A stretch of 64,000 nucleotides of DNA from a phage. Of the stretch, positions 14,181-38,176 are shown piece after piece; positions within the stretch are counted from its first letter, which is position 1, and each line of letters starts with the position of its first letter. The DNA lies in the sequence record PZ402305.1; one strand, written 5' to 3'. A program made the position numbers and the translations under genes. Under the pieces are notes generated by a model. That model was not told the DNA's origin and did no database searches. It worked only from the letters and a program-made list of their open reading frames with translations.

Positions 14181-14187
14181 TAAAATA

Positions 14188-14209: not shown

Positions 14210-14217
14210 CGTTTCCC

Positions 14218-14247
14218 TTGACACGAAGTTTCTATATGTGTTACAAT
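14218..14247 (+). promoter_or_regulatory. Sigma70-like promoter with extended -10 (TTGACA-N18-TGtTACAAT)
   Basis: -35 at 14218-14223, TG at 14239-14240, -10 at 14242-14247; 60-nt leader before ATG 14307. Confidence 0.6.
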
Positions 14248-18279: not shown

Positions 18280-21155
18280 TGTCAAGAGTTAAGCACAATA
18301 TTGACAACACGTTTCAGTTGATTGAAGGGTTGGTTCAGTTTTTGGAAAGAAATACTGGGCTTACCATAGATCCTACGGTTCAGCATTACATTATCAACCC
18401 ACAAAACGTATTGGCGAACAACAGACACTTTATTAACTGGACAGCGCAGGAAGGGCAACCAAACGGTGACGCTACTACCGAAGGTCAATCTGTACTTATC
18501 ACTGGTTTTGCTTATGCATATTTGGCTACAGGGGATAAAAAATATCTTGAATCTGCCGAGAAGTATTGGCAAGCCTATATAGATCACTTCTTCGGGGGCC
18601 AACCTATTCCTGATCCTCCGGCTAAGTATCGTCCCAACTGGATCATCAATGGTAAAGAACCACGTTTAGCACATTACCCTCTCACAGATGATGGGTATCC
18701 TACGCACGGTGGGTTCAAAGGTAGCATGATGACTTGGATTAACGGAAGGACTGTTATTCCTAAAGGTGCACCGCATTGGGGGGAATACTTAGATAAAGCT
18801 TGGTTTGCTTTCAATGGCAATCTTGGTTGGAACTCCGTTAACGCAACAGTTTATGCAACTAATCCAGATGGTTCAACCAACTGGAAAGAATATGGAGATC
18901 AGTGGGACGTTGAATGGATTATAGATCGTCTAGGACGTAAAGTTGATTGGGATGGTAACATTTTATCTACAGGTCACAGCTTCGCAGAATATGGAACAGT
19001 GCAACTTAAAAATGCTTCTGTGAACGGTGATTATAAATTCAACTACGCTACATGCAACCCTGTAGAACACGGTGGATATCTGCTTAAGCGTAATGAGATG
19101 TGGCATAACCGTCCTGTAAACGTTCCGGTAGAGTTAGGTTATCAAGATAATGCTTCCGATGCTGAAACGTGGTGGTGTGATGCAAACTACTTGATGTATC
19201 AGATCACAGGAGAGAGAAAATACTGGCTTTGCTGGCAATCTTCTTTATTGTTGTGTCAAGACTACTCAAACATCGATATGTTTGATAAATTCTTCCGTAG
19301 ATCTACGACAGCAATAATTCCTTTTACAGATGGTATCTCGTATGATTACTCATACCCATCTACAGCAATACCTAAATATTCTCGTGACGAATTAGGATAC
19401 ACAGTAATTCGCCAAGATGTTTCAGCACAAACAACTCTAGAACAACAGGCAGTTTGGTTCAGAGTAGATCAGAATTCAAAACTGCGTATTGAGTTTCAAG
19501 GTGTAGATGATGCAGGGGAAGGTGTTCTTTTCCGTCCAGAGCTAGAATTAAGCAAAACTAAGAGTGAAACAGACACAGTGACATATCGTTGTGGCTTACC
19601 TCTTGGTGCAGCTAATATGACTAAGATGGATATACCTTTATCTAGTTTTATGCGCACAGAACCTCCTGGAGGTGGTGTATATATTATTGCTGAACCCAGA
19701 ATTATTGTTGACTGGGGAAGCAATACTGTGATACAATATAAATATGCAACTGGTATTGCTGGGACAAATAGTGATCAGATAGTTTCTGCTAATATGGATT
19801 CAGATGGTGGTTTTACTGTTGGGTTTTGGTTAACACCAACTAAAACAGCCAATTTAAAATCTATTACGTATCGTTCATACGCAGATGATTTTAACATCAC
19901 TATTACGGATTCCGCAGGTTGGAGATGGTGGGCCATGTTAGAAAAAACAAATTCTGCATGGGTTACTAAAGCTTTAAGTCCTGCCGATTTCAAATTAAGT
20001 ACTTGGCAACCTAATCACGAAGACACAGAGGCAAAACCTTCGTCAATAAACCTGACTGCTGTTGATCAGATCAATATTGCATTGGATTCTGAACCTGCAA
20101 ATGGCTTGACAGGGGCAATCGATTTTTATTGCGTTAACGATATCCCATCTTTGTATTCTTCAGCCACTGGTGATGATTACACAATGTATTTCAGGGTTAC
20201 AGTTTCATCTGAAAATCCTTATACAGCAAAACTTGGAGATTGTACAATACTGGACTACAAACTTAACAGTTTGAATTATACTCCAGGAATCATTCCATTT
20301 TCCAATATCAGTGATCCTAACACAGCCTTATATGACGGTTGGCGTGGTATTCCTTACCCAGGTTATCAATACCCATCCTTATATTGTTTTAAAGGGAGAG
20401 ATATTGATTGGGTTCGTATGAACAACAGTATAGACTTTTTATATGATTCACAAATGTGGTTTTATAATAAGTTTGCTCCTGTGATGCCTGGACCAATGGC
20501 ACAAGCTTATGTTTGGGATCGTTGGGATGCTCATAAATACGGAAACAAGAATGAGTTCACAATGTATCATTGGAACGATAAAGCTTGGGATGGTTATGAA
20601 GCACGAGCATTCTTCTGTGCGTGTCATACAGTATACGAACTGAAACAACGAGGAGCAGAAGTTCCTGAAAAACTTTTAACAGTTTGTAAAAACTGGATCA
20701 ACTATCTAAAGTGGTTCCAAGACAACAACGAAGGAAGAACACCAACAATATTTTATCCCAACGGAGAAGTGGCAGCACCTGTAGATGACTTTACAAGTCA
20801 CATGTCTGCGCTCTTTATGGCAGGATGTGCTATAATGGGGATGGCTGGGTATGATTCAGAAATTCCTAACATTAAAATAGTAGCAGACCGCTGTTTTGAA
20901 CTTATTCAGGAAAATTATATTGTTCTTGGTCCTAATCATGTTATGAATGGCTGTTGGAGTTCCGCTCCTAGACCAGATAGTGATAACGGAGTCTTCTTTG
21001 GCTTCCACGCTGGAGAGTTGTTACGTGGTTTTGGGTTGTATGCTTTATACAAAAAACTTAATCCCCAAAATGCATTACCTGTTTTGGATTCGAGCAATAT
21101 TCCTGCACTTACTGTTTTGACAATGGCAAACATTAGTGTGGACGTTACCGAGTAA
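18279..21155 (+). CDS. Large virion structural protein (tail fiber or baseplate-associated, putative)
   Basis: 958-aa ORF in tail module, Trp/Tyr/Asn-rich, TAATG-coupled start. Confidence 0.45.
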   Translation: MSRVKHNIDNTFQLIEGLVQFLERNTGLTIDPTVQHYIINPQNVLANNRHFINWTAQEGQPNGDATTEGQSVLITGFAYAYLATGDKKYLESAEKYWQAYIDHFFGGQPIPDPPAKYRPNWIINGKEPRLAHYPLTDDGYPTHGGFKGSMMTWINGRTVIPKGAPHWGEYLDKAWFAFNGNLGWNSVNATVYATNPDGSTNWKEYGDQWDVEWIIDRLGRKVDWDGNILSTGHSFAEYGTVQLKNASVNGDYKFNYATCNPVEHGGYLLKRNEMWHNRPVNVPVELGYQDNASDAETWWCDANYLMYQITGERKYWLCWQSSLLLCQDYSNIDMFDKFFRRSTTAIIPFTDGISYDYSYPSTAIPKYSRDELGYTVIRQDVSAQTTLEQQAVWFRVDQNSKLRIEFQGVDDAGEGVLFRPELELSKTKSETDTVTYRCGLPLGAANMTKMDIPLSSFMRTEPPGGGVYIIAEPRIIVDWGSNTVIQYKYATGIAGTNSDQIVSANMDSDGGFTVGFWLTPTKTANLKSITYRSYADDFNITITDSAGWRWWAMLEKTNSAWVTKALSPADFKLSTWQPNHEDTEAKPSSINLTAVDQINIALDSEPANGLTGAIDFYCVNDIPSLYSSATGDDYTMYFRVTVSSENPYTAKLGDCTILDYKLNSLNYTPGIIPFSNISDPNTALYDGWRGIPYPGYQYPSLYCFKGRDIDWVRMNNSIDFLYDSQMWFYNKFAPVMPGPMAQAYVWDRWDAHKYGNKNEFTMYHWNDKAWDGYEARAFFCACHTVYELKQRGAEVPEKLLTVCKNWINYLKWFQDNNEGRTPTIFYPNGEVAAPVDDFTSHMSALFMAGCAIMGMAGYDSEIPNIKIVADRCFELIQENYIVLGPNHVMNGCWSSAPRPDSDNGVFFGFHAGELLRGFGLYALYKKLNPQNALPVLDSSNIPALTVLTMANISVDVTE

Positions 21156-21163
21156 GGGGTAAA

Positions 21164-23317
21164 ATGAAACAAGCTATATTTACTGTCACGCGAGACAAGA
21201 GAGTAAATGCGAGTTCATTTAACTACACGACTGTTGATGGAACAGCAGTCGCTGGTAGAGATTATATTGCAAAATCGGGAACACTTGTGTTCCCTGATGA
21301 TGCTGATTCTGCTACCATTGTGGTTGAAGTATTTGAACGACCAAAGAACTCAATAGATCTTAACTTCTCCCTCCAAGTTTCAGGGATTAGTCAAAATAAT
21401 ATGATGGTTGAAACAACCATCAATTGTATTATAACTACTATCCAAGAAAATACCACTCCAATAACTTGGACTACAAAAGACGTTAAAATGTTCTCTCCTA
21501 TGTATTGGACAATAGATTCTCAAGCAACGGAAAGTTGTTCTATTGTATCTCATGGAGACTCTTTTACTGCAAGATTTGTAAACAGAACAACAGCAGGTTT
21601 GGCAGGGGTTATCTGGAGCACAGTTGACAAATATGACCATAAAGGTGTTGGGTATTTACCCCACACAGATTTAAGTTCAGAGAAACTTTGGTTTAAAATG
21701 GAAATTAGTCAAAACATGCCAGGTTTTAAAGAAGAACCTTTGGTGCCGACTTTGACTGTAACTCTCCTGGATAAAAGTGTTCATTATGTCAGTTTAGGAT
21801 TCTACGCTTCAGATATTTCAGAAGATGGTAAAACAGCTACAATCAAGTTAGATTTTGGTAATATCTTTTCTGGCCCTAACAATGATATTCCTTTAGATAT
21901 GAGTGCTGTAGATAATATTTTCTTCTCTTTGATTACAGCAAGGTATGAAGAAATAGAAGAGATTGTACCTATTGCCAGTCAAGAGGCTTGGTTTACTTTC
22001 ACTCTTCTTGAACCTACTTCTGGTTACAGTATGATGAAAGTCAGCAACCTTGTCCAGCCTGAACATGATATTCGCATGTGCACATCTTATGATGATATGT
22101 ATAACCTGACCCCAGAGAGAGTTATTTACAATACATATGCACTAGGTTATCGTGGAATGATTAACCATTACAACGGAATGTCTCACTATTATGAATTCTC
22201 ATGGAACGGAACATCTTGGGCTTTAAATAGATCTGTTTTCCTGAATCCGGCTACAGAAGCTTGGCTTAACAGTTTCCATTCTATAGCTAATGAAAATGGC
22301 TACACAATAATGAACTCTTTGAGTTTTGAGTTGATGAGCACAGTTTGTCCTGTAGAATGGGTTCAACATGATTGGAACGATGCTCTTGCAGCAACAGGTT
22401 ATGAGCCGCCTAGTTATGTATTATCTCCAACAATTGATGAAGGTATGGAATATTTGCAAAATGTTATTAACAAAATAGCATCTATTTCTCAAGCTAACAA
22501 TATTCCAGTCGTCATTCAAATTGGTGAACCTTGGTGGTGGTATAATACAGCAAGTAAAATGCCTTGTATATATGATTACACTACCAAACTGGCATTCAAT
22601 ACAGAAACAGGCTTATTTGCACAAGATGCAGGAACAATAGATAATTATAAAACAGGAACGCCATTTGACGAATACTATGCATTTTTGTCTCGTAAACTAG
22701 GGTTAAGAGTTACAAAGTTTGCAACAGACACCAGAGCAACTTATCCTGGAGCTAAAGTAACATTGCTTCCGTTCTTACCATCAATTATCGGCAACGGTTT
22801 GATGGAGAAAGTTAACTTTCCGTCTGATTACTACATTCCTGAAGCTTTTGATTTTTATTGTTCAGAGTGTTACGACTGGCTTCTGGAAGGTAAAATGATG
22901 AAAGCATTTGATGCAATTACCATACCACATGAAAAATTAGGCTTTGAATATTCTGATATTCACTACCTTTCAGGTTTTGTTCCAGATGCTACTCTTGCAC
23001 CTTTGTATGGCTTTGTTCCTGAATCAAACTACCGCACATATCTTTGGAAGATGATTATAGGTAATATAGTGTTGAACGCCAATAAGTTCAATGGGCTTAC
23101 ACAATATATATGGGCCTATCCTCAAATAATGCATGATTCCATCACGGTAGTTAATTCTCAATCCCAAGTTTTCTATATGGGTAATGTGCCTTTGAATTGT
23201 TATTTGCAAGATATCACTCTTAAACAAGCAAATGTTGAGATTGCTACCATAAGTGGAATTACATTAGCTACTAAATCTGGAGAAGATTTAGTAACAACAC
23301 AAAAATTTTATATATAG
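21164..23317 (+). CDS. Tail fiber/structural protein (putative)
   Basis: 717-aa ORF with AAGGGG RBS in tail fiber region. Confidence 0.45.
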   Translation: MKQAIFTVTRDKRVNASSFNYTTVDGTAVAGRDYIAKSGTLVFPDDADSATIVVEVFERPKNSIDLNFSLQVSGISQNNMMVETTINCIITTIQENTTPITWTTKDVKMFSPMYWTIDSQATESCSIVSHGDSFTARFVNRTTAGLAGVIWSTVDKYDHKGVGYLPHTDLSSEKLWFKMEISQNMPGFKEEPLVPTLTVTLLDKSVHYVSLGFYASDISEDGKTATIKLDFGNIFSGPNNDIPLDMSAVDNIFFSLITARYEEIEEIVPIASQEAWFTFTLLEPTSGYSMMKVSNLVQPEHDIRMCTSYDDMYNLTPERVIYNTYALGYRGMINHYNGMSHYYEFSWNGTSWALNRSVFLNPATEAWLNSFHSIANENGYTIMNSLSFELMSTVCPVEWVQHDWNDALAATGYEPPSYVLSPTIDEGMEYLQNVINKIASISQANNIPVVIQIGEPWWWYNTASKMPCIYDYTTKLAFNTETGLFAQDAGTIDNYKTGTPFDEYYAFLSRKLGLRVTKFATDTRATYPGAKVTLLPFLPSIIGNGLMEKVNFPSDYYIPEAFDFYCSECYDWLLEGKMMKAFDAITIPHEKLGFEYSDIHYLSGFVPDATLAPLYGFVPESNYRTYLWKMIIGNIVLNANKFNGLTQYIWAYPQIMHDSITVVNSQSQVFYMGNVPLNCYLQDITLKQANVEIATISGITLATKSGEDLVTTQKFYI

Positions 23318-23325
23318 GAGTAAAA

Positions 23326-25392
23326 ATGTCAACTACAATTACTAATTTACCCGAAACATCAAAAGTTAATGATTCTGATTACCTGGTTTTAGACCAACCT
23401 GATAAGACTGTTAAAAGCACAGTTTCCAACTTTCTTACTGATACTGGGGTGGTTTTAGCCACCCAGTTGAAAGATACAAATGGAGCAGATTTAATACAAT
23501 CCTCAAATGGTAATACTGTTCAGGAAGAGTTGAATAACAATCTTCTTAATGATCGTGAACAGTGGCGTCGTAGTCTTGCCGAGGCTGGGTTAACTCTTGT
23601 TGATGGTAGTTTTGAAGAAGGGGCTACAGTGGGCAGTGTAACTGATGCTGTTTGGCACATTGCTGGTGGACAGTGTTATACATGGGACGGTGCTCTCCCT
23701 AAAACTGTTCCTGCTGACTCAACCCCTGAATCATCTGGTGGGGTTGGTGGCCGGAAGTGGGTTAGTGTTGGTGATGCGTCTTTAAAGACCATGCTTTATG
23801 GGTGGCAGGGCTATTCATTCATTGACGGTGGCAACTTATCATTATACAAAAAGAAAGGTATCTTTGGTGATTCAGGAACAATTCAAGATAAATACGAAGT
23901 AATTAAATATTCTGATGGGTTCTGGTATAAATATAACAACTCATTGCCATTCTCTTATGGTTCAGCCCCTGATTCCACTTGGACTAACGTAGGTAAGCTG
24001 AATGGTTTTGACGAGAATACCCCAGAGAATTTCGGGGCGGTTGTAAATAATAGTACGTATGACTGCCTGGATGCCATCAACAAGGCAATGGCGACTGGAT
24101 TTTTACGACTCACTGCTGGTGCTACTTATTTTGTTAGCGATGAAGTTGTTATCCCATCGAATTTAGTGATGGAAACAAACGGCGCAACCATTAAAGCGAT
24201 GAGTGGATATTCATGGGGCGGAAAGGCTGTAGTTCGAGCCAGCAAAAAACCAGTAGGAACATCCCCGGATCTTTCATTGCCTGAACAACAAGTTCGTGGA
24301 ATTAGGCACATTGGTACATTAAATATTGATGCTAACAATGTTGCGCCTTACGGTTTTTATGGTTTTGGTGTAGTTGCAGAATCTACCACAGACATTATAT
24401 ATGCTTATAATGCCACAGAAGTTGGAATTGTACTTCTTGGGAGTTGGTATCATAAAGTAAATCAATATATGGCAATTGATTGTGCACGAGGTGTATCTTT
24501 GGCACATGGTTTCTCCGGTGAAACCGGAGACGTAAACGTTAATGGTGTTGAATTTGGTGTCGTCGCTGCGTATAACACATCAAAATCTTTGTCCTATGGG
24601 TATGATCCGTATTCATCATCTTTAACCCCACAGCTCATAGGTGCTGGTGTCACTCTCGGGCAAGGATTGGCATCAAGAATAGGAACATTAATAGCTGAAA
24701 CCACAGCAGGCGCTGGTTTAGCTACTGTTAACGCTGTTAGTTGGTCTGTTGGTTCTATGTACTTCGAAAAATGCAGTGAAGCGCTTGAAGATAGTGCAGA
24801 GCCTGATATTGCGATATTATCAACTACAGGAAATGTCGAGGACCACGTATTTGACATTGGTAATATCCATTTTGGTATAGGGACTGGTATACTGCAAAGA
24901 GCAACGGCAAGTGAGTTTCTCAACATCCAATCCATATACCGTATAGACAATAAAAAAACATGGCATAGTTCTTCAAAGGCATCTTCAAGTTTTGTAAATT
25001 TCGTAAACTATTACGTTCTCAATCCTTATGATTACGTTAAACCTGCCCAACTAACTACTGACGTTGGCAAAGAGGTTGTCAGTTCATCGTCAATGCTTAA
25101 CTTTAAGGATTTTTCAAATACACCAAGTATACCTTTTGTATACACTGGAGGTGAGATAGCGATTCACGTTTCCATCTCTTCCGGTAGTGTAGTATCTACT
25201 GAATTCCAGGTGACTTCTGATTCAGGAATAGAATACATCACATGCACTGGCTCGCCTTTTCAGTTTAACCTTACGCAGCCGAGGACGGTAGGTAATACCT
25301 ATACCGTGACTCTAGCAACTGCGCAATCGGCAGCTTCCGGTCAAGGGGCGATACATATACTGAAACAAAAACCAAGCCAATGGCTTAGGTAA
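23326..25392 (+). CDS. Tailspike-like protein (putative beta-helix)
   Basis: 688-aa ORF; conserved-looking N-terminal anchor segment then Gly/Val/Asn-rich repeats suggestive of a beta-helix; followed by hairpins. Confidence 0.45.
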   Translation: MSTTITNLPETSKVNDSDYLVLDQPDKTVKSTVSNFLTDTGVVLATQLKDTNGADLIQSSNGNTVQEELNNNLLNDREQWRRSLAEAGLTLVDGSFEEGATVGSVTDAVWHIAGGQCYTWDGALPKTVPADSTPESSGGVGGRKWVSVGDASLKTMLYGWQGYSFIDGGNLSLYKKKGIFGDSGTIQDKYEVIKYSDGFWYKYNNSLPFSYGSAPDSTWTNVGKLNGFDENTPENFGAVVNNSTYDCLDAINKAMATGFLRLTAGATYFVSDEVVIPSNLVMETNGATIKAMSGYSWGGKAVVRASKKPVGTSPDLSLPEQQVRGIRHIGTLNIDANNVAPYGFYGFGVVAESTTDIIYAYNATEVGIVLLGSWYHKVNQYMAIDCARGVSLAHGFSGETGDVNVNGVEFGVVAAYNTSKSLSYGYDPYSSSLTPQLIGAGVTLGQGLASRIGTLIAETTAGAGLATVNAVSWSVGSMYFEKCSEALEDSAEPDIAILSTTGNVEDHVFDIGNIHFGIGTGILQRATASEFLNIQSIYRIDNKKTWHSSSKASSSFVNFVNYYVLNPYDYVKPAQLTTDVGKEVVSSSSMLNFKDFSNTPSIPFVYTGGEIAIHVSISSGSVVSTEFQVTSDSGIEYITCTGSPFQFNLTQPRTVGNTYTVTLATAQSAASGQGAIHILKQKPSQWLR

Positions 25393-25399
25393 AACAAAA

Positions 25400-25415
25400 C
25401 CCCGCTTCAGCGGGG
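25400..25415 (-). terminator. GC hairpin, terminator-like in minus orientation
   Basis: ccccgc-ttca-gcgggg stem-loop preceded by an A-run on the plus strand, so the U-tract is on the minus strand. Confidence 0.3.
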
Positions 25416-25505
25416 AATTATAAAGGTACTATCATGGTCTTCATTACGATTCACACAAACTATGTCCTGCAAGCGCATGTCATCGCCATGTGATAAAATG
25501 ATGAA

Positions 25506-25604
25506 AACATATCGTAGCAGGGTTAATCTTGTCTTTAGTTACTATCGTACTAACTCAAAATGTTGTCACTACCACTGCAAGCCCCTCCAAAGAGGGGTTT
25601 ACTT
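25506..25604 (+). ncRNA. Candidate small RNA (about 100 nt) between tailspike gene and next operon
   Basis: Extended -10-like element TGaTAAAAT at 25491-25499, no convincing RBS-led ORF, and an intrinsic terminator at 25582-25604. Confidence 0.2.
25582..25604 (+). terminator. Rho-independent terminator (plus strand)
   Basis: cccctc-caaa-gagggg stem-loop followed by tttactt. Confidence 0.5.
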
Positions 25605-25624
25605 AGAAAAACAAAGAGGTTGTT

Positions 25625-25933
25625 ATGAACGAAATGTTCTCCCAAGGTGGTAAAGGTTCAACCGGAATCTTAACCAATAAACAAGCAGTAGCCCGTCACT
25701 TTGGAGTTAAACAATCTGAGGTTGTTTACTTCTCAGTTGGTGTGGATTTGGGTGGGTATAAGGTTATCTATGATAAGGAGACGCAAAGGGCGTATTCCCT
25801 ACCTGCTGATATTGCCCTAGGTACTACTGCCATTAGTCTTAGTGCTGCTGTACTTGTGCATTCAGCGGGTTCTGTAGACCTTGGGGAATTAGCTGTATCT
25901 CGTGATTTAAAAAGTAAGGAGAACGCACCATGA
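25625..25933 (+). CDS. Hypothetical protein
   Basis: 102-aa ORF with AAGAGG RBS. Confidence 0.55.
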   Translation: MNEMFSQGGKGSTGILTNKQAVARHFGVKQSEVVYFSVGVDLGGYKVIYDKETQRAYSLPADIALGTTAISLSAAVLVHSAGSVDLGELAVSRDLKSKENAP

Positions 25934-26172
25934 GAAAGTTTTTAATCGGAATGTTTTGTACTTATCCAAACAACAAAATCAGTTCTACTAAAGTGTGGAA
26001 CGCACTGGGAATGCTAACCATGACAGGCATGTTTATCTTTTTAGGAATAGAAAAAGAAATTCCTGAATGGATGGGTTGGGCTTTTGTTTTCATGATAACC
26101 CCTTCTCGCCTCATGAAAAATCTTATTGATTTACGTTGGGGCAGATCACAATCTACCAAAGAGGATGACTAA
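25930..26172 (+). CDS. Small membrane protein (two predicted TM helices, charged C-terminus)
   Basis: 80-aa ORF with hydrophobic segments (MLTMTGMFIFLGI; WMGWAFVFMITP) and AAGGAG RBS; start overlaps upstream stop. Confidence 0.5.
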   Translation: MRKFLIGMFCTYPNNKISSTKVWNALGMLTMTGMFIFLGIEKEIPEWMGWAFVFMITPSRLMKNLIDLRWGRSQSTKEDD

Positions 26173-27659
26173 TGGACGAATATGGTTTGACAGATGCGGG
26201 ATTTGTAATCCCGACTTTTGACGATGTTCTAAACAATTATATGACAGCAGTAAAAAACACATTTGGTGCAGATGCAGCCACTTCGGAAGATACTGTGATC
26301 GGACAACTGTTTAGAATAATTGCATACACAGATTACACATTGTGGGAAGGTATGCAAGGTGTTTATAATACTCAAACACTGGATGGTGCAGAAGGTATTT
26401 ATCTTGACGAAATCTTTTCTAAACGCGGTTTCTATCGAGCAGGGGCAGCAGCAAGTACAGGTTATGCCTATGTTAAGAGTAATAACAAAGCAGCTTGGAC
26501 TTATGAGTTAGGCACGGATATTTACTTCAACTCTGATAGTGATATGAACTACTATGTTAGCACACCAACTATGTTGAATGCTAAGATTGCAGCTTATCAA
26601 ATCTCTCGTGCTAATGCAACTGCTACAGGTGTTCCAAATATTACTTTTTATGCACAAAGTGCGGTAGACGGAGGACTAAACAGTAAAACACTTGCACCTG
26701 GTTCTTCTACATTTATAACAGATCTTGAAACCTTTATCAAGGCGAATTTAACAGAAGCTGATCGTAGTCTTGTATTTTCTGATTCAGGTAACTTATCAAT
26801 TGGTTTTACTTCTTTAACCAGTGATACTCCAGTGGGACTGGTAACTCCTATTAAATTTTATGCTAGTGTTCCGGTTGGAACCAAGTGGAGTGAGATTCCG
26901 GTAGTTGCAGCAGAGAAAGGATACAATCCTGTTGGTGTGGAGTCTATTACAGGAATATCTTCTACCTTTACAGGTTATCTTGACAGCGGTAACTTCTATT
27001 CATTTTCTCCTGGTCGAGATGTTGAGACAGACGCAGAATTCCGCTCTCGTTTCAATGACAATGTTGATGAAGCTAACGCAGGGACACGAGCAGCCATTGT
27101 GAAAGCTCTGCTACTTACAGATGGTGTTACTAAGGTGAAGATTTATGATAACCCTACGTTACATGATCAAGAACACGCTCCAGCTATGACTTTCCAGACT
27201 ATAGTTTATGGAGGGAGTGCTGAAGAAGTTGCTGAAGTTATTTACAAAACTAAACCAATCAACAGTTTGACACATGGAACAACCAACATAACTGTTACAA
27301 CAGAAGACGGAGGACAAGAAATTATTCGTTTTTCTCCTGGTGCTTCTGCTACGTATTCCGTAAAACTTGTTTATCAAACTGTCAACGGAACAACTTTAAG
27401 TGGAACAGAAAAACAAAACATTGTAGAAGCTTTACAAAACCTGCAAGCTTACTTTGAATTAGGTTCTTCAGTAACGAACGATCAAATCAAAGGTGTTATT
27501 TATGCAGCACTTGCTTTTGGACGCTTGACTTCTCTTCGTGTTTATGTTAAACTTAATACTGAGGATGACAGTAAATATACAGAGAATAATATAGTTCCTG
27601 CTTATAATGTTGTCCCTTCTTTTGACCTTGATAACATTTCTTACGAGTACGGAGTGTAA
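26172..27659 (+). CDS. Baseplate wedge (J-like) protein (putative)
   Basis: 495-aa ORF upstream of I-like protein, tail fiber and fiber-assembly genes, a P2-like J-I-H-G gene order. Confidence 0.4.
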   Translation: MDEYGLTDAGFVIPTFDDVLNNYMTAVKNTFGADAATSEDTVIGQLFRIIAYTDYTLWEGMQGVYNTQTLDGAEGIYLDEIFSKRGFYRAGAAASTGYAYVKSNNKAAWTYELGTDIYFNSDSDMNYYVSTPTMLNAKIAAYQISRANATATGVPNITFYAQSAVDGGLNSKTLAPGSSTFITDLETFIKANLTEADRSLVFSDSGNLSIGFTSLTSDTPVGLVTPIKFYASVPVGTKWSEIPVVAAEKGYNPVGVESITGISSTFTGYLDSGNFYSFSPGRDVETDAEFRSRFNDNVDEANAGTRAAIVKALLLTDGVTKVKIYDNPTLHDQEHAPAMTFQTIVYGGSAEEVAEVIYKTKPINSLTHGTTNITVTTEDGGQEIIRFSPGASATYSVKLVYQTVNGTTLSGTEKQNIVEALQNLQAYFELGSSVTNDQIKGVIYAALAFGRLTSLRVYVKLNTEDDSKYTENNIVPAYNVVPSFDLDNISYEYGV

Positions 27660-27661
27660 AA

Positions 27662-28291
27662 ATGGCAGTGAGTGTTGACCATGTAACTACTTGGGCCAGT
27701 ATCAATGAAGACGTTAAAAACCTTCTGATTGAAGATTTTAAATCTTCTCCTAACATTGTCAAGCTCCTCTACATCGTATCCAGTGAAAAGCAAAAGATAG
27801 ATCAGGCAATGATCTATCTTGCTAAACACCGCTTGATCTCCACAGCCACAGGCAAATACCTAGATATCTTAGGAGAAGAAATGGGGATCGAACGTAATGG
27901 CTCTGATGATGAAGAGTATAGAACAATATTAAAAATCAGGGCTTACCGCGTAGCCTCCTCTGGGACTCGTGGTGACATAATTGATATCTTCGCCCGTTTC
28001 ACAGGAACAGAGCGTGAAACGCTTAATACTTACGTAGGTTTGAATAAAACCTTTGATGTGTTTTTCTACAACCTGTGTCTTCAATCTGATCAAGCTTTAG
28101 AGCAGTTGCTAAGTGTTTTCCCTATTATTAGTAGCTACCGTCTTGGAGCAAAAGCAGGATCAGCTTTTGGTTTTAGTTCTTATTATGCTACCAAACCGCC
28201 TCATGGTATTGGTGGTTTAGGTTCCCTGTACATGGAATCTACTGGGGATGAAACAGGACGCATGTGTACGCTTCTCAAGCAAATAGATTAA
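27662..28291 (+). CDS. Baseplate/tail protein (I-like, putative)
   Basis: 209-aa ORF between J-like and tail fiber genes. Confidence 0.4.
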   Translation: MAVSVDHVTTWASINEDVKNLLIEDFKSSPNIVKLLYIVSSEKQKIDQAMIYLAKHRLISTATGKYLDILGEEMGIERNGSDDEEYRTILKIRAYRVASSGTRGDIIDIFARFTGTERETLNTYVGLNKTFDVFFYNLCLQSDQALEQLLSVFPIISSYRLGAKAGSAFGFSSYYATKPPHGIGGLGSLYMESTGDETGRMCTLLKQID

Positions 28292-28300
28292 GGAGTTTAA

Positions 28301-29362
28301 ATGGCGAAGCCAATATATTATCCTGACTGGGCTACACAAACTGTAACGCTCCCAGGAACTTTAAACACAAACAAAATTAGACCTAAAGAAACCATCCGCA
28401 CAGTTGGGATGGATTATGGTCAAATCATGACTTGCGAAGAAATGAACTGGATTCTTAATAATATCGGTTTATGGATTCGCTATTTGGTGGATGACTTTCT
28501 TCCAACTTTACCTGATACTTACTTGCCTTTAGTTGGAACTAAGATTACAATGGCAGGTGATGCTACTGGTGAGGCTACTTGGAATGGTAATAAAGAAGTT
28601 ACTTTATCTATCCAAGTTCAAGATAACAGTCATAATCACTTGTCGGCAAACATTACAGATGCCACTAGTTCAACAGTAACACCAAACGTGTTGGTAAAAC
28701 GTGATGCGGGTGGTGCTATTTATGGTGGTGATGTTTATGTTAACGGTACTTCCACAACAGATCCTGCGACACTGTTTTTCAAAAACTTTGCAGGACAAAC
28801 TAATGGTGAGATTTCTGCCGAATACCAAAGTGGAGGTCAGCTTTATATTTATCGTAGAAATCCTAGCACAGGTAGTGTATCAGCAGGTGTTCGTTTATAT
28901 GATGCAGGTTATGTTCTAATAGACAGTCCAAGATCAAACAGTGGACAAGATACTTCTAACGGAAACGCTTTAGTTCGCTTAGATTATCTGAATTCTCGTT
29001 TGACTTCTCTTCAGAACACATTGCAGACGAATATTAACACTGTTCAAAACAACCTGAATAGTGTTAACAGCAACCTCTCTTCCCGTATAAACAATGTAGA
29101 AAGTAATCATCAAAGTCAGATTACAAACAACTACAATTATGCTAACGGAACCTTTGTAAGAGATATTCGTTACACTAGCCAAGGTGTGTATTATCCACCA
29201 GGGAACGAAGTTTCTTGGACTTATATCTGTTCTTCTGGTTATGTTCTTTCTGGTATTATTGTCCAGGAAACAGGGCGTAGTTCTGCGGATAACATCGGTG
29301 GGGTTTATTTCAAACGCCTCCAGCGCAACGTTAACGGAAACTGGTACGATATCGGAGGCTAA
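28301..29362 (+). CDS. Tail fiber protein
   Basis: 353-aa ORF, Asn/Ser/Thr/Gly-rich with short repeats (NTLQTNINTVQNNLNSVNSNLSSRINNV), followed by a tail-fiber-assembly-like gene. Confidence 0.5.
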   Translation: MAKPIYYPDWATQTVTLPGTLNTNKIRPKETIRTVGMDYGQIMTCEEMNWILNNIGLWIRYLVDDFLPTLPDTYLPLVGTKITMAGDATGEATWNGNKEVTLSIQVQDNSHNHLSANITDATSSTVTPNVLVKRDAGGAIYGGDVYVNGTSTTDPATLFFKNFAGQTNGEISAEYQSGGQLYIYRRNPSTGSVSAGVRLYDAGYVLIDSPRSNSGQDTSNGNALVRLDYLNSRLTSLQNTLQTNINTVQNNLNSVNSNLSSRINNVESNHQSQITNNYNYANGTFVRDIRYTSQGVYYPPGNEVSWTYICSSGYVLSGIIVQETGRSSADNIGGVYFKRLQRNVNGNWYDIGG

Positions 29363-29908
29363 ATGATATTTACAAATTTTAAAAGATATACTCCCGAAGA
29401 TCCCGAACTAAAAGAATTGGTAGAAGTAGAGAACATTCTTTTTCTTCGTTGCGATCAAGGTTACGATTGGTATGATTTACGTAGCACAGAATTCAATAAC
29501 GATAAAATGAAAGTCGTTTTTGACGATCAAAATCGTATTGTGTTTTGGAACACTGATCCTACATTACTTTGCCCTGAAGATCTTTCTATAGCACAAGTGG
29601 ACTTTAATATAGACACTTTTGAGGATATTAGAAACAAGGTTCTGGATTTAGAAACTTTGACTCTTAAGGATAAAGAGTATTCCCGTGAAGAGTTGATGAC
29701 ACAAGCTAGTGCAAAAATTCGCTCTTTACAAGAAACAGCGGTAGCACTTATAACACCTTTACAGTATGCTAAAGATTTAGAAATGGCTACTGAAGATGAA
29801 TTAGCTTATCTTAAAAATCTTCAAGTTTATGTGGTTAAACTAAACCGTGTTCCGCTTCAAAAAGACTATCCTTACACTATAGATTGGCCTACATTACCAA
29901 CGGAATAA
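29363..29908 (+). CDS. Tail fiber assembly protein (Tfa-like chaperone, putative)
   Basis: 181-aa ORF immediately downstream of a tail fiber gene; start overlaps fiber stop (TAAATG). Confidence 0.45.
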   Translation: MIFTNFKRYTPEDPELKELVEVENILFLRCDQGYDWYDLRSTEFNNDKMKVVFDDQNRIVFWNTDPTLLCPEDLSIAQVDFNIDTFEDIRNKVLDLETLTLKDKEYSREELMTQASAKIRSLQETAVALITPLQYAKDLEMATEDELAYLKNLQVYVVKLNRVPLQKDYPYTIDWPTLPTE

Positions 29909-29917
29909 GGGATCATT

Positions 29918-30253
29918 ATGGAATTTCAAGAAGCATGGGGACTTGCAAAGGATGCAATCATCCCTTTAATCGGAGTCATCTGGTTCTTTTTCAAACAAAA
30001 AATGGATAAATTCGGCTCTGATCTTGAGGAAATGGAGGAGAAAAGTCGAGAGCTAGAGAAGAAGTTGGTCTTTGTTGAATCAACCTATGCAACTAAAGCC
30101 GAACTTACCCAGATGCTAAATCAAATTAACTCTACATTAATGGCAAATAATAACACTCTTGAGCAAAAAATTGAAAAGATTATGGACCTCAAGAATGCGA
30201 CTATTCAAATGATGCTAGATGACATAGTTAAACGTACACAGAATAAGGGGTAA
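29918..30253 (+). CDS. Small protein with N-terminal TM helix and coiled-coil tail
   Basis: 111-aa ORF; hydrophobic segment IIPLIGVIWFFF then heptad-like charged region. Confidence 0.5.
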   Translation: MEFQEAWGLAKDAIIPLIGVIWFFFKQKMDKFGSDLEEMEEKSRELEKKLVFVESTYATKAELTQMLNQINSTLMANNNTLEQKIEKIMDLKNATIQMMLDDIVKRTQNKG

Positions 30254-30256
30254 TTA

Positions 30257-33310: not shown

Positions 33311-33316
33311 TGGAAT

Positions 33317-33340
33317 AGAGGGGGAATCCCCCTCTTCTTC
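33317..33340 (+). terminator. Rho-independent terminator
   Basis: gagggggaatccccctc hairpin followed by ttcttcc. Confidence 0.6.
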
Positions 33341-33371
33341 CAATAGAATGGTCTAATGATAGGAGAGATAA

Positions 33372-35396: not shown

Positions 35397-35400
35397 CAGA

Positions 35401-35425
35401 AGCCCCGAAAGGGGCTTTCTTTTTA
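35401..35425 (+). terminator. Rho-independent terminator
   Basis: agcccc-gaaa-ggggct stem-loop followed by ttcttttt. Confidence 0.7.
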
Positions 35426-35437
35426 TGGAGGGTTTAA

Positions 35438-38113
35438 ATGTTTCCAATTCCAATATTTACTATTATGACCAGCACTGGTGTTGTTCCTCTGCCAGCAGGT
35501 ATTGTTAAAAAAGTAATCACTTTAGATTACCCAGATAATGCTGGTAATTCTAACAGCAGTTTAGCAATTTTGCTTAATGATGGTAGATTGTTTACTCAAG
35601 GCGCAAACCTTTTTGGTGAGATTGCAGATGGAACTCGTAGTGCACGATTCAATAATTTCCATTTAGCTTCTACTGTAGTAGCGGATGTGTTTACCGCAGA
35701 TCGTTGTTTTGTTATTAAAACTAACAGTGGGGGATGGCAATATTCAGGATTGACAGCAGGGTTGGTAGGATCTATAGCAGCAGGTGGTACGGACGCATGT
35801 GTAACTACTTGGACCAGCTTTCCATCTGTAATAACAGGGACTATCTCTTTAGCTAATCTTAAAGAGGTTAAGGGAGGATATAACAACACTCTCTGGTTAA
35901 TGAATAGTGGTGTTCTTTATGGATCAGGTCAAAACACAGTAGGCAGTTTAGGTGCAAGTACTACTAACGAAGTTTCTACTCCTCGTCAGATAACAAGTGC
36001 AGCAGTTGCTTTTGATGCAGGTTACAACCAATGCTCTTATGTCAACAATGTGGGAACCTTGCGTGTTTGTGGAGCTAGTAAAGGTTTAGCAGGTAATAAT
36101 AACACAACAACAGCTTTTGTCAATGCTAAGATATCCGCTACTGAAACAGTGTATGTCAAAGATTACATCAATACAGTTTCCCAGACAATAGTTGTAGGAG
36201 ATACCTCCGGTGGCACGGGTACAGTAAACTACTTATATGTTAGGTCTAATACAGAAACAACCTACACTAAACTGGATACCTTTGCAGCAGGTTTCTCAAC
36301 ATGGAAGTTTCCACCAAGCCGCCACTCTTTTTTCGTTGGGATCAATAATTCCTTGTGGGCTATTGGTAAGAACTACACTGCAAACTTAGGTTTGGGGTAT
36401 GATTCTGCGAGCGGAGATCCACTCCAAGTGGGAAAACCAGTTAAACCTGAAGGAGTGGGTTCTTGGGATATAAACAAGCTCACAAGCGTTCATACGCTGA
36501 ATATGGATGTTACTAACCAATTAGGTTATCAAGGAACCTTTTTCGTTTATAATGGAGATATGTATTATTCCGGTATTTGGAAAGATGGGAAAGCCTCGTA
36601 TCTGTTCAATAGCGGTCTAAACTATAATAAATTCACACCAATAGCAAGCTCCGTGATTACGGGTGATATTCTGGCAACTGGCTTAACTACAGATTCTTTA
36701 GGAATTTGTATTGTAGGTGGAACTAAACAGTTGACACATTCTGTTAGCCCAGAAGGAGGTAAACTTTTCAATATTAAATACACTTCTTCTGCCCCTGCAA
36801 ACATGACAATATCATCTACTGGTTTAATGACTTTCCATGCAGAAGGTGGTTTTGATGCAGGTATGACAGCCTTAAACGCCGAAGGAACAACTTTATCAGA
36901 TACCTCTGGAGGATATGCTTCAACATTGAGTGTTTACACCCCTAGCTTATCTGCGATGGATGTAGGAACAACACAAACAATGGTAGCAGAAATAACGCCA
37001 ACAGGAGCAGCAAGCTTACCTGGTATGGTTGTTGAGTATTTCTCTAATGACCCTACGGTAGCAACAGTTGACCCTGTTACAGGCGTTATTACAGCGGTTG
37101 CTGATGGAGGTTGTCGTATCGGTTGTAGAGCAACTTATCAAGGTGTGGTAACTGCCGAAGATAGTTCTTATCTCACAGTGAATGCTGTGGTGATTGTGAT
37201 GGATTATGATTTGACGCAAGAAACTATTCCGGCGGATGTAAAGGTCAACAGGAGTAACCGTTATGCCAGGGCTTCTGGAGATATCCTTGTACCTACAGAG
37301 AGTTCTGCTCCCGTAGCACCTTTAGAATATGTTGGTACAACTCCACAAGGTAGACGTGTTGTAGCAGCCAACCGTACACATATCTTTATCAACAATAACT
37401 TGACAACAGCTTCCCCGTGGTTGAAGACGAACTTGACAGTCACAGCATCAACAATCAACTCTCCGGTTGGAACTACGGCTAACACTTACAAGTTAACACC
37501 TTCTACAACTTCAGGACAACATATTTTATCAGCAGTGAATACAGCTTCTGATATTACAGCAGGTAAGCACTGGGCGGCATCCGTATTCTTGAAGCCAGAT
37601 GGGATCACTAAAGTGAAACTCAAATTGACTTCAGGAGATGAGATTAACGAAGGGACTTATGATCTTGTAGCTGGAACATTTACAGGTGCAGATGCAAACA
37701 TAATCGATATGGGGAATGGTTGGTATCGTGTAATTCTACACAAAGTGACAGTTGCCAAACAAGCATCTATAACCTATGAGATTATAGCTTTGAATGCAAG
37801 TGGATCAGACACTTTCGCAGGAGATGGTACGGCAGGTCTTATTGCTTGGGTTCCACAGCTTGAGATGGGTGATATGACAAATCCAGTTTGGGCGGGGACA
37901 CCATTTGTTTGTTCTTATGCACGAGACACTACCAGTGCTGTTACCTTCACTATTCCTAAGAATGGACATACTGGCGTGGACATTTACCACACTGATGGTA
38001 CTGTGCAACGAGAGGTCTTCACTGGTACAGCTACAACTTGGATGTTGACGTTCACCGCCGCAAGTGCGGATTGGGGATCGAAGTTCATTACAGGTTTGAA
38101 ATATTACGACTAA
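35438..38113 (+). CDS. Tail fiber / receptor-binding protein (putative)
   Basis: 891-aa Thr/Gly/Ser/Ala-rich ORF, last gene of plus-strand arm. Confidence 0.45.
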   Translation: MFPIPIFTIMTSTGVVPLPAGIVKKVITLDYPDNAGNSNSSLAILLNDGRLFTQGANLFGEIADGTRSARFNNFHLASTVVADVFTADRCFVIKTNSGGWQYSGLTAGLVGSIAAGGTDACVTTWTSFPSVITGTISLANLKEVKGGYNNTLWLMNSGVLYGSGQNTVGSLGASTTNEVSTPRQITSAAVAFDAGYNQCSYVNNVGTLRVCGASKGLAGNNNTTTAFVNAKISATETVYVKDYINTVSQTIVVGDTSGGTGTVNYLYVRSNTETTYTKLDTFAAGFSTWKFPPSRHSFFVGINNSLWAIGKNYTANLGLGYDSASGDPLQVGKPVKPEGVGSWDINKLTSVHTLNMDVTNQLGYQGTFFVYNGDMYYSGIWKDGKASYLFNSGLNYNKFTPIASSVITGDILATGLTTDSLGICIVGGTKQLTHSVSPEGGKLFNIKYTSSAPANMTISSTGLMTFHAEGGFDAGMTALNAEGTTLSDTSGGYASTLSVYTPSLSAMDVGTTQTMVAEITPTGAASLPGMVVEYFSNDPTVATVDPVTGVITAVADGGCRIGCRATYQGVVTAEDSSYLTVNAVVIVMDYDLTQETIPADVKVNRSNRYARASGDILVPTESSAPVAPLEYVGTTPQGRRVVAANRTHIFINNNLTTASPWLKTNLTVTASTINSPVGTTANTYKLTPSTTSGQHILSAVNTASDITAGKHWAASVFLKPDGITKVKLKLTSGDEINEGTYDLVAGTFTGADANIIDMGNGWYRVILHKVTVAKQASITYEIIALNASGSDTFAGDGTAGLIAWVPQLEMGDMTNPVWAGTPFVCSYARDTTSAVTFTIPKNGHTGVDIYHTDGTVQREVFTGTATTWMLTFTAASADWGSKFITGLKYYD

Positions 38114-38120
38114 TAAAAAA

Positions 38121-38149: not shown

Positions 38150-38176
38150 ATAAAAACTCTTTATAAATCAATAAGA

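What the first reader, a model, noticed from the sequence alone, without database searches (positions are those of the whole stretch)
25393..25624. 232-nt non-coding gap with opposed terminator hairpins and a possible small RNA
Downstream of the 688-aa tailspike-like gene there is a gap with no credible coding capacity; the only track ORF (25462..25653) lacks an RBS and runs through a terminator. The gap is bounded by a GC hairpin whose U-tract is on the minus strand (25400-25415) and a plus-strand intrinsic terminator (25582-25604). An extended -10-like element TGaTAAAAT (25491-25499) would place a start near 25506, giving a ~100-nt RNA ending at the terminator. This could be a phage small RNA or a cis-regulatory leader separating two tail-fiber operons.
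Basis: inference. Interest (0 to 1): 0.4.

Follow-up and report, generated by a model that had tools for sequence, protein, structure and literature searches.

The report
Mosaic junction between tailspike gene cassettes
The 232-base gap is best read as a patchwork recombination junction between swappable phage tailspike genes: two terminator-type hairpins of a kind already reported, with a short DNA piece between them that is shared with unrelated phages and contains a promoter-like box; there is no positive evidence for a dedicated small RNA gene.

Summary
The window is a Phapecoctavirus (Stephanstirmvirinae), 99% identical here to Dompiswa phage TSP7_1.

Comparison with relatives shows the gap is a mosaic of four pieces:
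- **A-tract plus hairpin 1 (25393-25415).** This looks like the left half of a tailspike terminator that has both an A-tract and a T-run in Kuttervirus SS3. That would explain why the U-tract falls on the minus strand.
- **A roughly 100-nt piece (25416-25514).** It carries a 19-codon ORF and a TGTGATAAAAT extended -10 box. Small uncultured BUCT618-like myoviruses, whose proteins are only 23-32% identical, share it at 88-94% DNA identity. In those phages it lies 23-26 nt upstream of the baseplate J gene.
- **An orphan 64-nt piece (25515-25578).**
- **Hairpin 2 plus the ribosome-binding region (25579-25624).** This travels with the tailspike N-terminal anchor module in Kuttervirus and Gamaleyavirus.

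The core occurs in only 19 of about 142 related records. Its 99% conservation also covers the adjacent 102-aa gene, even in relatives only 75% identical in the next genes, so recent exchange explains it.

Rfam gave nothing, and 0 of 30 predicted RNA pairs covary.

Most likely function: leaky terminators, a probable internal promoter, and homology arms for swapping receptor-binding domains. This is ordinary and largely a known kind.

The parts
25393..25415 (+). A-tract (AACAAAA) plus hairpin 1, CCCCGC-TTCA-GCGGGG at 25400-25415. It starts 7 nt after the tailspike stop codon. There is no U-tract on the + strand; the T-run lies on the minus strand only.
   Evidence: -11.1 kcal/mol. The same hairpin, with a UUCG loop, occurs in W22, UP17, U1G, Ro121c4, P3322, PD114 and L021. 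Kuttervirus SS3 has the form with tracts on both sides, AACAAAAC-CCCCGCTTAGGCGGGG-TTTTTATTT. It fits the published 20-nt 'motif three' downstream of RBP genes (PMC10408124).
25416..25433 (+). Variable spacer with an SD-like AAAGG, 7 nt before the ATG of the small ORF.
   Evidence: Three or four non-homologous or strongly diverged spacer types exist, and most carry a purine-rich SD-like motif upstream of the start position.
25434..25493 (+). 19-codon ORF (MVFITIHTNYVLQAHVIAM). Its TGA stop codon is the TGA of the extended -10 box. Whether it is translated is unproven.
   Evidence: an ATG start and an open frame in 13 of 18 sequences and a GTG start in 1. It is disrupted in 4: UP17 (AGG), Ro121c4 and P3322 (ATT), and EF1-1 (frameshift). 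My hand count on the sequences gives minimum substitutions of 4/12/17 at codon positions 1/2/3 in the 5' half. In L014, homology begins at the ATG.
25470..25514 (+). Nearly invariant 45-nt block, CAAGCGCATGTCATCGCCATGTGATAAAATGATGAAAACATATCG. It contains the extended -10 box TGTGATAAAAT (25489-25499). The inferred start site is about 25505-25507. There is no sigma-70 -35 hexamer.
   Evidence: Homology with the BUCT618-like contigs L014, L015 and L020 ends at 25514, and with L021 at 25510. BUCT618 has GTGATATAAT at the same position upstream of baseplate J. The block is single-copy in the window.
25515..25578 (+). Orphan 64-nt segment, found only in core-carrying Stephanstirmvirinae and in U1G. 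It would be the body of the hypothetical RNA or leader.
   Evidence: Searches found no other context. Identity is 99% among carriers. There is no covariation. A weak minus-strand promoter-like site, GTGACA-17-GATAGT at 25569..25541, scores only 9/12, at the level seen in shuffles.
25579..25606 (+). Hairpin 2: core CCCCTC-CAAA-GAGGGG at 25582-25597, 9 bp when extended, followed by the degenerate tail TTTACTTAG. It is terminator-derived and probably leaky.
   Evidence: -14.1 kcal/mol. Homologous hairpins have TTTTTT (nieznany), CTTTTTT (SS3) or TTTCCT (PhAPEC7, dw-ec) tails. The loop is inverted to TTTG in G1 and P3322 with the stem kept.
25607..25624 (+). Translation-initiation region (SD AAGAGG at 25614-25619) of the downstream ORF. 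It moves together with hairpin 2 and the anchor module across phage families.
   Evidence: AGAAAAACAAAGAGGTT(G/T)(T/A)TATG is conserved in Kuttervirus, Gamaleyavirus and Stephanstirmvirinae.
25625..25933 (+). 102-aa ORF consisting only of the N-terminal anchor module of tailspikes, with no receptor-binding body. It belongs to the same recently exchanged block as the gap core.
   Evidence: phrog_7992, 18484 and others match residues 1-94; 97-99% identity even in Justusliebigvirus relatives that are 75% identical in the baseplate J gene. W22, UP17 and DIJ07P2 carry a 49-aa deletion form.
25462..25653 (+).
   Evidence: It has no SD, its frame is broken by 1-nt indels in ukendt and G1, and it has no PHROG hit.

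Best explanation
The gap is a recombination junction that built up at the right-hand edge of an exchangeable tailspike (receptor-binding) cassette. It is not a purpose-built RNA gene.

**Shown**
- The variable 3' part of the 688-aa tailspike gene lies between two sequences shared with otherwise unrelated phages: the Tail_spike_N coding region on the left and the gap on the right.
- The gap is itself made of separately distributed pieces:
  - A-tract plus hairpin 1, matching the upstream tract and stem of the Kuttervirus SS3 tailspike terminator.
  - A roughly 100-nt piece with a 19-codon ORF and an extended -10 box, shared with BUCT618-like myoviruses.
  - A 64-nt orphan segment.
  - Hairpin 2 plus the ribosome-binding region, which belong to the tailspike anchor module of Kuttervirus and Gamaleyavirus.

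**Inferred**
- Direction of transfer: the last 26 nt of the shared piece match the sequence upstream of baseplate J in BUCT618, which has no tailspike cassette there. The piece was therefore probably imported into Stephanstirmvirinae.
- Hairpin 1 has lost its U-tract, so on the + strand it stabilises or weakly attenuates the tailspike mRNA rather than terminating it.
- TGTGATAAAAT probably acts as a -35-independent sigma-70 promoter starting near 25506.
- Hairpin 2, with its weak U-tract, lets most transcripts continue into the 102-aa anchor ORF and the baseplate genes. A roughly 100-nt terminated by-product is possible.
- The conserved pieces act mainly as homology arms for swapping receptor-binding domains between phages.
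For: **Mosaic structure**
- Homology with 12 relatives begins at different points: window 25393, 25399, 25424, 25434, 25440 and 25452.
- The tailspike proteins share only their N-terminal 150-250 residues.
- L021 matches the window at 23508-23775 (79%) and at 25390-25510 (94%), with nothing in between.
- L015 shares 138 nt with PD114 at 95.7% and nothing else.
- L015 proteins are only 23-32% identical to those of the window.

**Shared piece and its native context**
- In L014, L015, L020 and L021 the shared piece abuts a Baseplate_J (phrog_6) gene, which is followed by DUF2612 in L014. This gene order matches the window.
- BUCT618 has no tailspike at this position but carries GTGATATAATGATTAAAAATTACCGGGGGTGGCATG there.

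**Hairpins**
- SS3 shows the form of hairpin 1 with an A-tract and a T-run. nieznany, SS3, PhAPEC7 and dw-ec show hairpin 2 directly after a tailspike or small ORF.

**Conservation reflects exchange, not constraint**
- W22 and PD114 are 75% identical to the window in the baseplate J gene, yet 99-100% identical in the core and 97-99% in the 102-aa gene.
- The core is present in 19 of about 142 related records.

**Literature**
- A conserved 20-nt predicted terminator lies 0-19 nt downstream of RBP genes in Gamaleya-, Kutter- and Justusliebigvirus and was proposed as a recombination hotspot (PMC10408124).
- Composite promoter/terminator cassettes mediate shuffling in T4-like phages (PMC2839356).
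Against: - No transcript data exist, so promoter activity and terminator leakiness are inferred from sequence only.
- The box lacks a -35 hexamer, unlike the TTGACA promoters elsewhere in the window.
- U1G has lost the TG of the extended -10 box.
- Relatives such as dw-ec express the same downstream genes with no such promoter, so it cannot be essential.
- The 45-nt block is more conserved between element types than the 5' half of the small ORF. Recombinational homogenisation may explain this, but so could an unknown constraint such as a protein-binding site.
- The origin of the 64-nt orphan segment is unknown.
Confidence: 0.55

Rival explanations
1. Neutral scar. The segment 25416-25578 is trapped DNA left by successive tailspike-cassette exchanges. 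It has no regulatory or coding role, and the promoter-like box and small ORF are inert passengers.
For: - The segment is present in only 19 of about 142 related records. dw-ec and nieznany lack it and keep the same downstream genes.
- The small ORF is disrupted in 4 of 18 copies, and the TG of the -10 box is lost in U1G.
- The high identity extends into the 102-aa gene, which points to recent exchange rather than constraint.
- The -10 match alone is not above chance.
Against: - The 45-nt block stays about 96-100% identical between element types whose adjoining 36 nt differ by about 30%.
- The extended -10 box is retained, and is closer to consensus (TATAAT), in BUCT618 at the same distance from baseplate J.
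Confidence: 0.3
2. Plus-strand small RNA. An RNA of about 100 nt starts near 25506 from the extended -10 promoter, ends at hairpin 2 and acts in trans.
For: - The -10 box is conserved.
- The interval 25505-25606 folds with a z-score of -2.5 into two stem-loops plus the terminal hairpin.
- The segment is invariant in 13 carriers.
Against: - Rfam found no family.
- Of 30 pairs, none is compensatory, and the few substitutions break or wobble pairs.
- The tail CUUACUUAG is a poor terminator and a poor Hfq-type 3' end, whereas homologous hairpins elsewhere have U6.
- The body (25515-25578) exists only in one recently exchanged block.
- No complementarity of 15 nt or more was found within the window, and there was no match in E. 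coli genomes.
Confidence: 0.12
3. Functional micro-protein. The 19-codon ORF 25434-25493 is translated, and the peptide, for example a beta-hairpin that assists tailspike or baseplate assembly, travels with tailspike cassettes.
For: - The ORF is exactly 19 codons (20 in U1G) in five upstream contexts, most with an SD-like motif.
- Homology in L014 begins at the ATG, with a stop codon immediately upstream.
- There are no indels across types that differ by about 30%.
- Replacements are conservative (F/Y, I/V/T, H/Q, N/S), and substitutions by my hand count are 4/12/17 at codon positions 1/2/3, roughly p = 0.02.
Against: - Four of 18 copies have lost the start codon or the frame.
- Position 2 varies more than position 1, which is unusual for a constrained protein.
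- The 3' half is conserved at the nucleotide level together with 20 nt beyond the stop codon, which suggests a DNA signal rather than a peptide.
Confidence: 0.15
4. Minus-strand RNA. Hairpin 1 with its TTTTGTTTTA tail terminates an antisense transcript. This could start at the weak site at 25569..25541, giving about 140 nt, or at the near-consensus site at 27762..27735, giving about 2.3 kb.
For: - On the minus strand, hairpin 1 is the best terminator match in 20 kb.
- The A-tract is kept in most carriers despite different upstream genes.
- A TTGACA-16-TAAAAT site lies at 27762..27735.
- The interval 25390-25535, minus strand, folds with a z-score of -2.6.
Against: - The A-tract is explained by the SS3 form, which has both an A-tract and a T-run.
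- The 9/12 promoter-like site is at chance level: 2 sites found against 8 expected in 3 kb.
- Hairpin 1 is absent in ZCKP1, G1, DIJ07P2, EF1-1 and L014, and degenerate in L015 and L020.
- No reading frame is open on the minus strand across the variable half of the small ORF (my reading of the sequence; one search lists only a 23-aa minus-strand ORF whose stop lies in the hairpin-1 loop).
Confidence: 0.07

Closest known systems
Conserved non-coding 'motif three' downstream of receptor-binding-protein genes in Gamaleya-, Kutter- and Justusliebigvirus (PMC10408124, section 20)
   Same: - It is a roughly 20-nt GC hairpin starting 0-19 nt after the RBP stop codon, predicted to be a terminator.
- It is conserved across phage families and was proposed as a recombination hotspot that, with an N-terminal motif, brackets the exchangeable receptor-binding domain.
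- Hairpins 1 and 2 fit this position and distribution.
   Different: - The window has two such hairpins in tandem with 163 nt trapped between them.
- Hairpin 1 has lost its downstream T-run.
- The trapped DNA adds a further conserved arm of about 100 nt, shared with BUCT618-like myoviruses, a group not covered by that paper.
- The published logo could not be read because it is a figure, so sequence identity to motif three is not verified.
PeSL cassettes (promoter-early stem-loops) of T4-like phages (PMC2839356, PMC4122927)
   Same: They are small composite terminator/promoter sequences lying between a stop codon and the next SD, at the borders of variable genes. They are thought to work both as regulatory punctuation and as homology for modular shuffling.
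   Different: - PeSLs occur about 50 times per genome, carry full -35/-10 sigma-70 promoters and sit mostly in early hyperplastic regions.
- This element is single-copy per genome, lacks a -35 hexamer, lies in the late tail module and is shared between unrelated phage groups rather than repeated within one.
Rho-independent (intrinsic) terminators and sigma-70 extended -10 promoters of E. coli
   Same: - Both hairpins have GC-rich 6-9 bp stems with tetraloops, and most relatives have the stable C(UUCG)G loop.
- TGTGATAAAAT matches TRTGnTAtAAT at the TG and at 5 of 6 positions of the hexamer.
   Different: - Hairpin 1 has no 3' U-tract on the coding strand.
- The U-tract of hairpin 2 is interrupted.
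- No -35 hexamer is present, and activity is untested.

Membership tests
Intrinsic terminator, + strand, hairpin 1 | GC-rich stem-loop followed within 0-2 nt by a U-rich tract on the transcribed strand | tested here: not met
   The stem is perfect (6 GC pairs, -11.1 kcal/mol), but the + strand tail is AATTATAAAGG. The scan calls it only on the minus strand.
Intrinsic terminator, + strand, hairpin 2 | GC-rich stem-loop followed by a U-rich tract | tested here: inconclusive
   The stem is met (-14.1 kcal/mol). The tail is TTTACTTAG in the window and CTTACTTAG in 12 relatives, and the scan did not call it. Homologues in nieznany and SS3 have T6 tails.
Sigma-70 extended -10 promoter | TG at -15/-14 plus a -10 hexamer close to TATAAT; -35 dispensable | tested here: met
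   TGTGATAAAAT at 25489-25499. BUCT618 has TGATATAAT at the homologous position. The match alone is at chance frequency.
Sigma-70 extended -10 promoter | A mapped transcription start about 7 nt downstream | not testable with these tools
   No transcript data for this phage group turned up in the literature search.
Known RNA family (Rfam 15) | Score at or above a family's gathering threshold | tested here: not met
   The best hits score 11-16 bits against thresholds of 40-80, with E-values of 2-7.
Structured small RNA gene | Base pairs maintained by compensatory changes in relatives | tested here: not met
   Of 30 predicted pairs, none has a change on both sides in 13 sequences. The covariation term is +0.33. 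Power is low because the sequences are 99% identical.
RBP-flanking 'motif three' (PMC10408124) | Non-coding motif of about 20 nt starting 0-19 nt after an RBP stop codon, predicted terminator, shared across genera | tested here: met
   Hairpin 1 starts 7 nt after the stop codon. The same hairpin follows tailspike genes in Justusliebigvirus W22 and PD114, Kuttervirus SS3 and the N4-like U1G. Identity to the published logo was not checked because it is held as an image only.
PeSL cassette | Many copies per genome at borders of variable genes | tested here: not met
   The 24-nt core motif occurs once in the 64-kb window with up to 3 mismatches allowed.
PeSL cassette | Full sigma-70 promoter (-35 and -10) combined with a stem-loop | tested here: not met
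   There is no -35 hexamer 16-18 nt upstream of TAAAAT; the sequence there is AAGCGC. The hairpins lie 74 nt upstream and 80 nt downstream of the box.
Protein-coding small ORF | Start codon with SD, open frame kept in relatives, codon-position bias in substitutions | tested here: inconclusive
   13 of 18 copies have an ATG and an open frame, and 4 are disrupted. Substitutions at codon positions 1/2/3 are 4/12/17 by my hand count.

The most novel reading that the evidence does not exclude
The roughly 100-nt piece (25416-25514) is a small mobile expression unit and not a scar. It would comprise a translated 19-residue peptide gene and an overlapping -35-independent promoter that move together with tailspike cassettes. 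The carriers are unrelated phage lineages: 150-kb Stephanstirmvirinae, 38-kb BUCT618-like myoviruses and an N4-like podovirus. The peptide or the promoter would contribute to assembly or expression of the newly acquired receptor-binding protein.
Probability: 0.12. Interest if true: 0.55.

Novelty: new member of a known kind. Interest (0 to 1): 0.27.

Why it matters
It shows at base-pair resolution how receptor-binding cassettes move between very different coliphages. Crossovers fall at a conserved terminator hairpin and in a short conserved non-coding arm, and fragments of the donor's regulatory DNA are carried along. This extends the published 'recombination hotspot' picture to a further phage group and a longer arm. 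The arm could be useful as a natural homology site for engineering host range. It does not reveal a new type of RNA or regulatory mechanism.

Tried and rejected
- **Rfam** at permissive E-values over 25000-26000 gave only chance hits. No tRNA or tmRNA was found.
- **63-aa ORF 25462-25653** was rejected as a gene.
- **Host-derived sequence:** there was no match in 5,426 E. coli genomes.
- **Prophage or bacterial copies:** the first genome-contig scan found nothing. The second returned 7 hits with unrelated flanks, which are chance matches of an AT-rich 20-mer.
- **Origin of the orphan segment 25515-25578:** two IMG/VR scans found only a Stephanstirmvirinae contig.
- **Trans-target complementarity in the window:** the longest match was a single 14-mer, with about 0.1 expected.
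- **RNA hairpin inside the small ORF (25462-25483):** by my reading of the sequences, variants break pairs and none compensates, so it was rejected.
- **Leader-peptide attenuator:** the MFE and consensus folds showed no alternative pairing with the hairpin-2 arm. By inspection the peptide has no run of regulatory codons, and the BUCT-like copies have no terminator after the ORF. It was rejected.
- **Minus-strand coding across the element:** stop codons appear in the frames I checked by hand on the sequence, and one search lists only a short 23-aa minus-strand ORF.
- **Pho-box (11/18) or CRP half-site resemblance** of ATGTCATCGCCATGTGAT: recalled from memory, wrongly placed relative to the -10 box, and not pursued.
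- **Published transcriptomes** for Stephanstirmvirinae: none found.

Full report
**Identity and setting**

The window is a Phapecoctavirus (Stephanstirmvirinae). The 401 nt around the finding are 99.3% identical to Dompiswa phage TSP7_1.

Positions 1-38113 form a tightly packed + strand structural module. The 232-nt gap at 25393-25624 is the largest gap in that module.
- Upstream lies a 688-aa tailspike with a Tail_spike_N domain (PF18668, residues 93-150).
- Downstream come four ORFs:
  - a 102-aa ORF that matches only the first ~94 residues of tailspike families;
  - an 80-aa membrane protein;
  - a 495-aa Baseplate_J protein;
  - a 209-aa DUF2612 protein.

**Observation check**

- The two hairpins are far more stable than chance: -11.1 and -14.1 kcal/mol, and none of 300 shuffles of the gap gave two such hairpins.
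- The terminator scan did not call the 'plus-strand terminator', because its tail (TTTACTTAG) is interrupted.
- The -10-like box occurs at chance frequency when taken alone.
- The 63-aa ORF is not a gene. It has no SD, its frame is broken in ukendt and G1, and it has no family match.

**Comparative anatomy**

Nineteen phage records (14 distinct phages) carry the core of the gap, out of about 142 records that share the baseplate J gene.

Aligning 12 of them shows that the upstream tailspike bodies are unrelated. Only the N-terminal 150-250 residues are shared. Homology to the window begins at different points: 25393, 25399, 25424, 25434, 25440 or 25452.

From about 25466 to 25580 the sequences are 99% identical, against about 90% in the downstream genes. 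This is not evidence of constraint. The Justusliebigvirus relatives W22 and PD114 are only 75% identical to the window in the baseplate J gene. Yet they are 99-100% identical in the core and 97-99% in the adjoining 102-aa ORF. The block from about 25466 to 25933 was therefore exchanged recently.

Other Stephanstirmvirinae lack the core entirely.
- dw-ec runs from the tailspike stop codon to hairpin 2 in about 35 nt.
- nieznany has two unrelated small ORFs in that position.

**Hairpin 2 and the ribosome-binding region (25579-25624)**

These belong to the tailspike anchor module. The same CCCCTC-loop-GAGGGG hairpin, followed by AGAAAAACAAAGAGGTTnnTATG, precedes anchor-module tailspike genes in Kuttervirus SS3 and Gamaleyavirus PhAPEC7 and the homologous 102-aa ORF in nieznany and dw-ec.
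- The tails there are TTTTTT, CTTTTTT or TTTCCT, so the window's tail is a degenerate version.
- In G1 and P3322 the loop is inverted (CAAA to TTTG) while the stem is kept.

**Hairpin 1 (25400-25415)**

Its minus-strand U-tract has a simple explanation. After its last tailspike, Kuttervirus SS3 carries AACAAAAC-CCCCGCTTAGGCGGGG-TTTTTATTT, with an A-tract upstream and a T-run downstream. The window keeps the A-tract and the stem, but different DNA follows (AATTATAAAGG, or GAAATGAATAC in PD114-type copies). This suggests crossovers at the hairpin's 3' edge.

This matches the published description of a 20-nt predicted terminator 0-19 nt after RBP stop codons in Gamaleya-, Kutter- and Justusliebigvirus, proposed as a recombination hotspot (PMC10408124).

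**The trapped piece (25416-25514)**

Pattern scans recovered four uncultured contigs carrying it:
- two metagenomic contigs, L014 and L015;
- two IMG/VR contigs, L020 and L021.

DNA identity to the window:

| Contig | Window interval | Identity |
|---|---|---|
| L021 | 25390-25510 | 94.3% |
| L015 | 25434-25514 | 91.4% |
| L014 | 25446-25514 | 88.4% |
| L020 | 25434-25514 | 87.8% |

- L015 also shares 138 nt with PD114 at 95.7%.
- L015's proteins are only 23-32% identical to those of the window.
- The closest cultured relative of these contigs is the 38-kb coliphage BUCT618, at 88% amino-acid identity in baseplate J.
- In all four contigs the piece ends 23-26 nt before the ATG of baseplate J. 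In L014 that gene is followed by DUF2612.
- Homology with the window stops just before that gene's SD.

BUCT618 itself has no tailspike and no small ORF at this position. It still carries GTGATATAATGATTAAAAATTACCGGGGGTGGCATG, a perfect extended -10 box at the homologous position. The last 26 nt of the window's piece therefore look native to BUCT618-like phages. This argues that Stephanstirmvirinae, and the N4-like podovirus U1G with 380 nt at 90.5%, imported it together with a tailspike cassette.

**What the trapped piece might do**

The 45-nt block 25470-25514 is nearly invariant across element types, while the adjoining 36 nt differ by about 30%. It spans roughly -37 to +8 of a promoter whose -10 hexamer is TAAAAT preceded by TGTG. 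There is no -35 hexamer, unlike the TTGACA promoters elsewhere in the window. I consider a -35-independent promoter the most likely function, at roughly 45%. Repeated recombinational homogenisation of a homology arm is an alternative.

The 19-codon ORF has the following properties:
- It has an ATG start and an open frame in 13 of 18 copies.
- Most upstream contexts carry an SD-like motif.
- Amino-acid replacements are conservative.
- Substitutions at codon positions 1/2/3 are 4/12/17 by my hand count.
- It is broken in four Stephanstirmvirinae copies.
- Its 3' half is conserved at the DNA level rather than the peptide level.

Translation therefore remains possible but unproven.

**Small-RNA hypothesis**

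A transcript running from about 25506 to hairpin 2 would be about 100 nt and folds with a z-score of -2.5. Against this:
- Rfam found nothing.
- None of 30 pairs covaries.
- The terminator tail is poor.
- The body of the RNA is a 64-nt orphan found only inside the recently exchanged block.
- No target-like complementarity was found.

A minus-strand RNA ending at hairpin 1 is also conceivable. It is less likely once the SS3 comparison accounts for the A-tract.

**Verdict**

The gap is a composite recombination junction at the edge of an exchangeable receptor-binding cassette. It is made of two copies of a known terminator-type motif, a fragment imported from BUCT618-like phages that probably carries a working promoter, and an orphan spacer.

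It most likely acts as leaky transcriptional punctuation and as a homology arm. In this it resembles the published RBP-flanking motifs and, functionally, PeSL cassettes (PMC2839356). It is not a PeSL member: it is single-copy and has no -35 hexamer.

Overall this is an ordinary finding with a modest new detail.

Noticed in passing
window 25625-25933: The 102-aa ORF is a 'headless' tailspike. It matches only the N-terminal ~94-residue anchor module of many tailspike families and has no receptor-binding body. W22, UP17 and DIJ07P2 carry an in-frame deletion of about 53 codons that leaves 49 aa. It may be a structural adaptor or a decaying remnant.
   Followed up: partly
window 27762..27735, 23332..23305 and 36123..36096 (minus strand): Three near-consensus sigma-70 sites (11/12: TTGACA-16-TAAAAT twice, and TTGACA-16-TATTAT with TG) lie on the minus strand inside + strand tail genes. 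The + strand of 20001-40000 has no site scoring 11/12. They are possible antisense promoters.
   Followed up: no
L015 (CYGL01000130.1), about 5669-5752, minus strand: A 27-codon, very hydrophobic ORF (MFIFAGILAVFVLFVVLVIRCSVAGYG) with an AAGGAG SD lies between the tailspike stop codon and hairpin 1. It resembles a small membrane peptide or a type I toxin. It is absent from the window.
   Followed up: no
window 25588-25591; L009 (G1) and L011 (P3322): The loop of hairpin 2 is CAAA in most phages but its reverse complement, TTTG, in G1 and P3322, with the stem unchanged. This is a signature of template switching at a palindrome.
   Followed up: partly
L002 (Escherichia phage U1G, Gamaleyavirus) 5001-5380: This N4-like podovirus carries 380 nt (window 25399-25777) at 90.5% identity, including both hairpins, the orphan segment and a truncated 107-aa anchor ORF. 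This is exchange between a podovirus and 150-kb myoviruses.
   Followed up: partly
L009 (vB_Ec-G1) 2752-3195: The annotated 147-aa 'hypothetical protein' runs straight through the gap. It is a deletion fusion of a ZCKP1-like 52-aa ORF to a non-coding frame of the gap, so it is probably an annotation artefact.
   Followed up: partly
window 14187-14247, 2080-2108 and 3772-3800: The structural module uses canonical TTGACA-17/18-TAnnnT promoters. At 14187-14247 one directly follows a UUCG-loop terminator, so late genes appear to be read by host sigma-70 RNA polymerase.
   Followed up: no
L014, L015, L020 compared with L029 (BUCT618): In the uncultured BUCT618-like contigs a tailspike cassette sits between the 117-aa-type gene and baseplate J. 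The upstream gene has gained a 25-residue C-terminal extension (142 aa), which marks the left junction of that insertion.
   Followed up: partly
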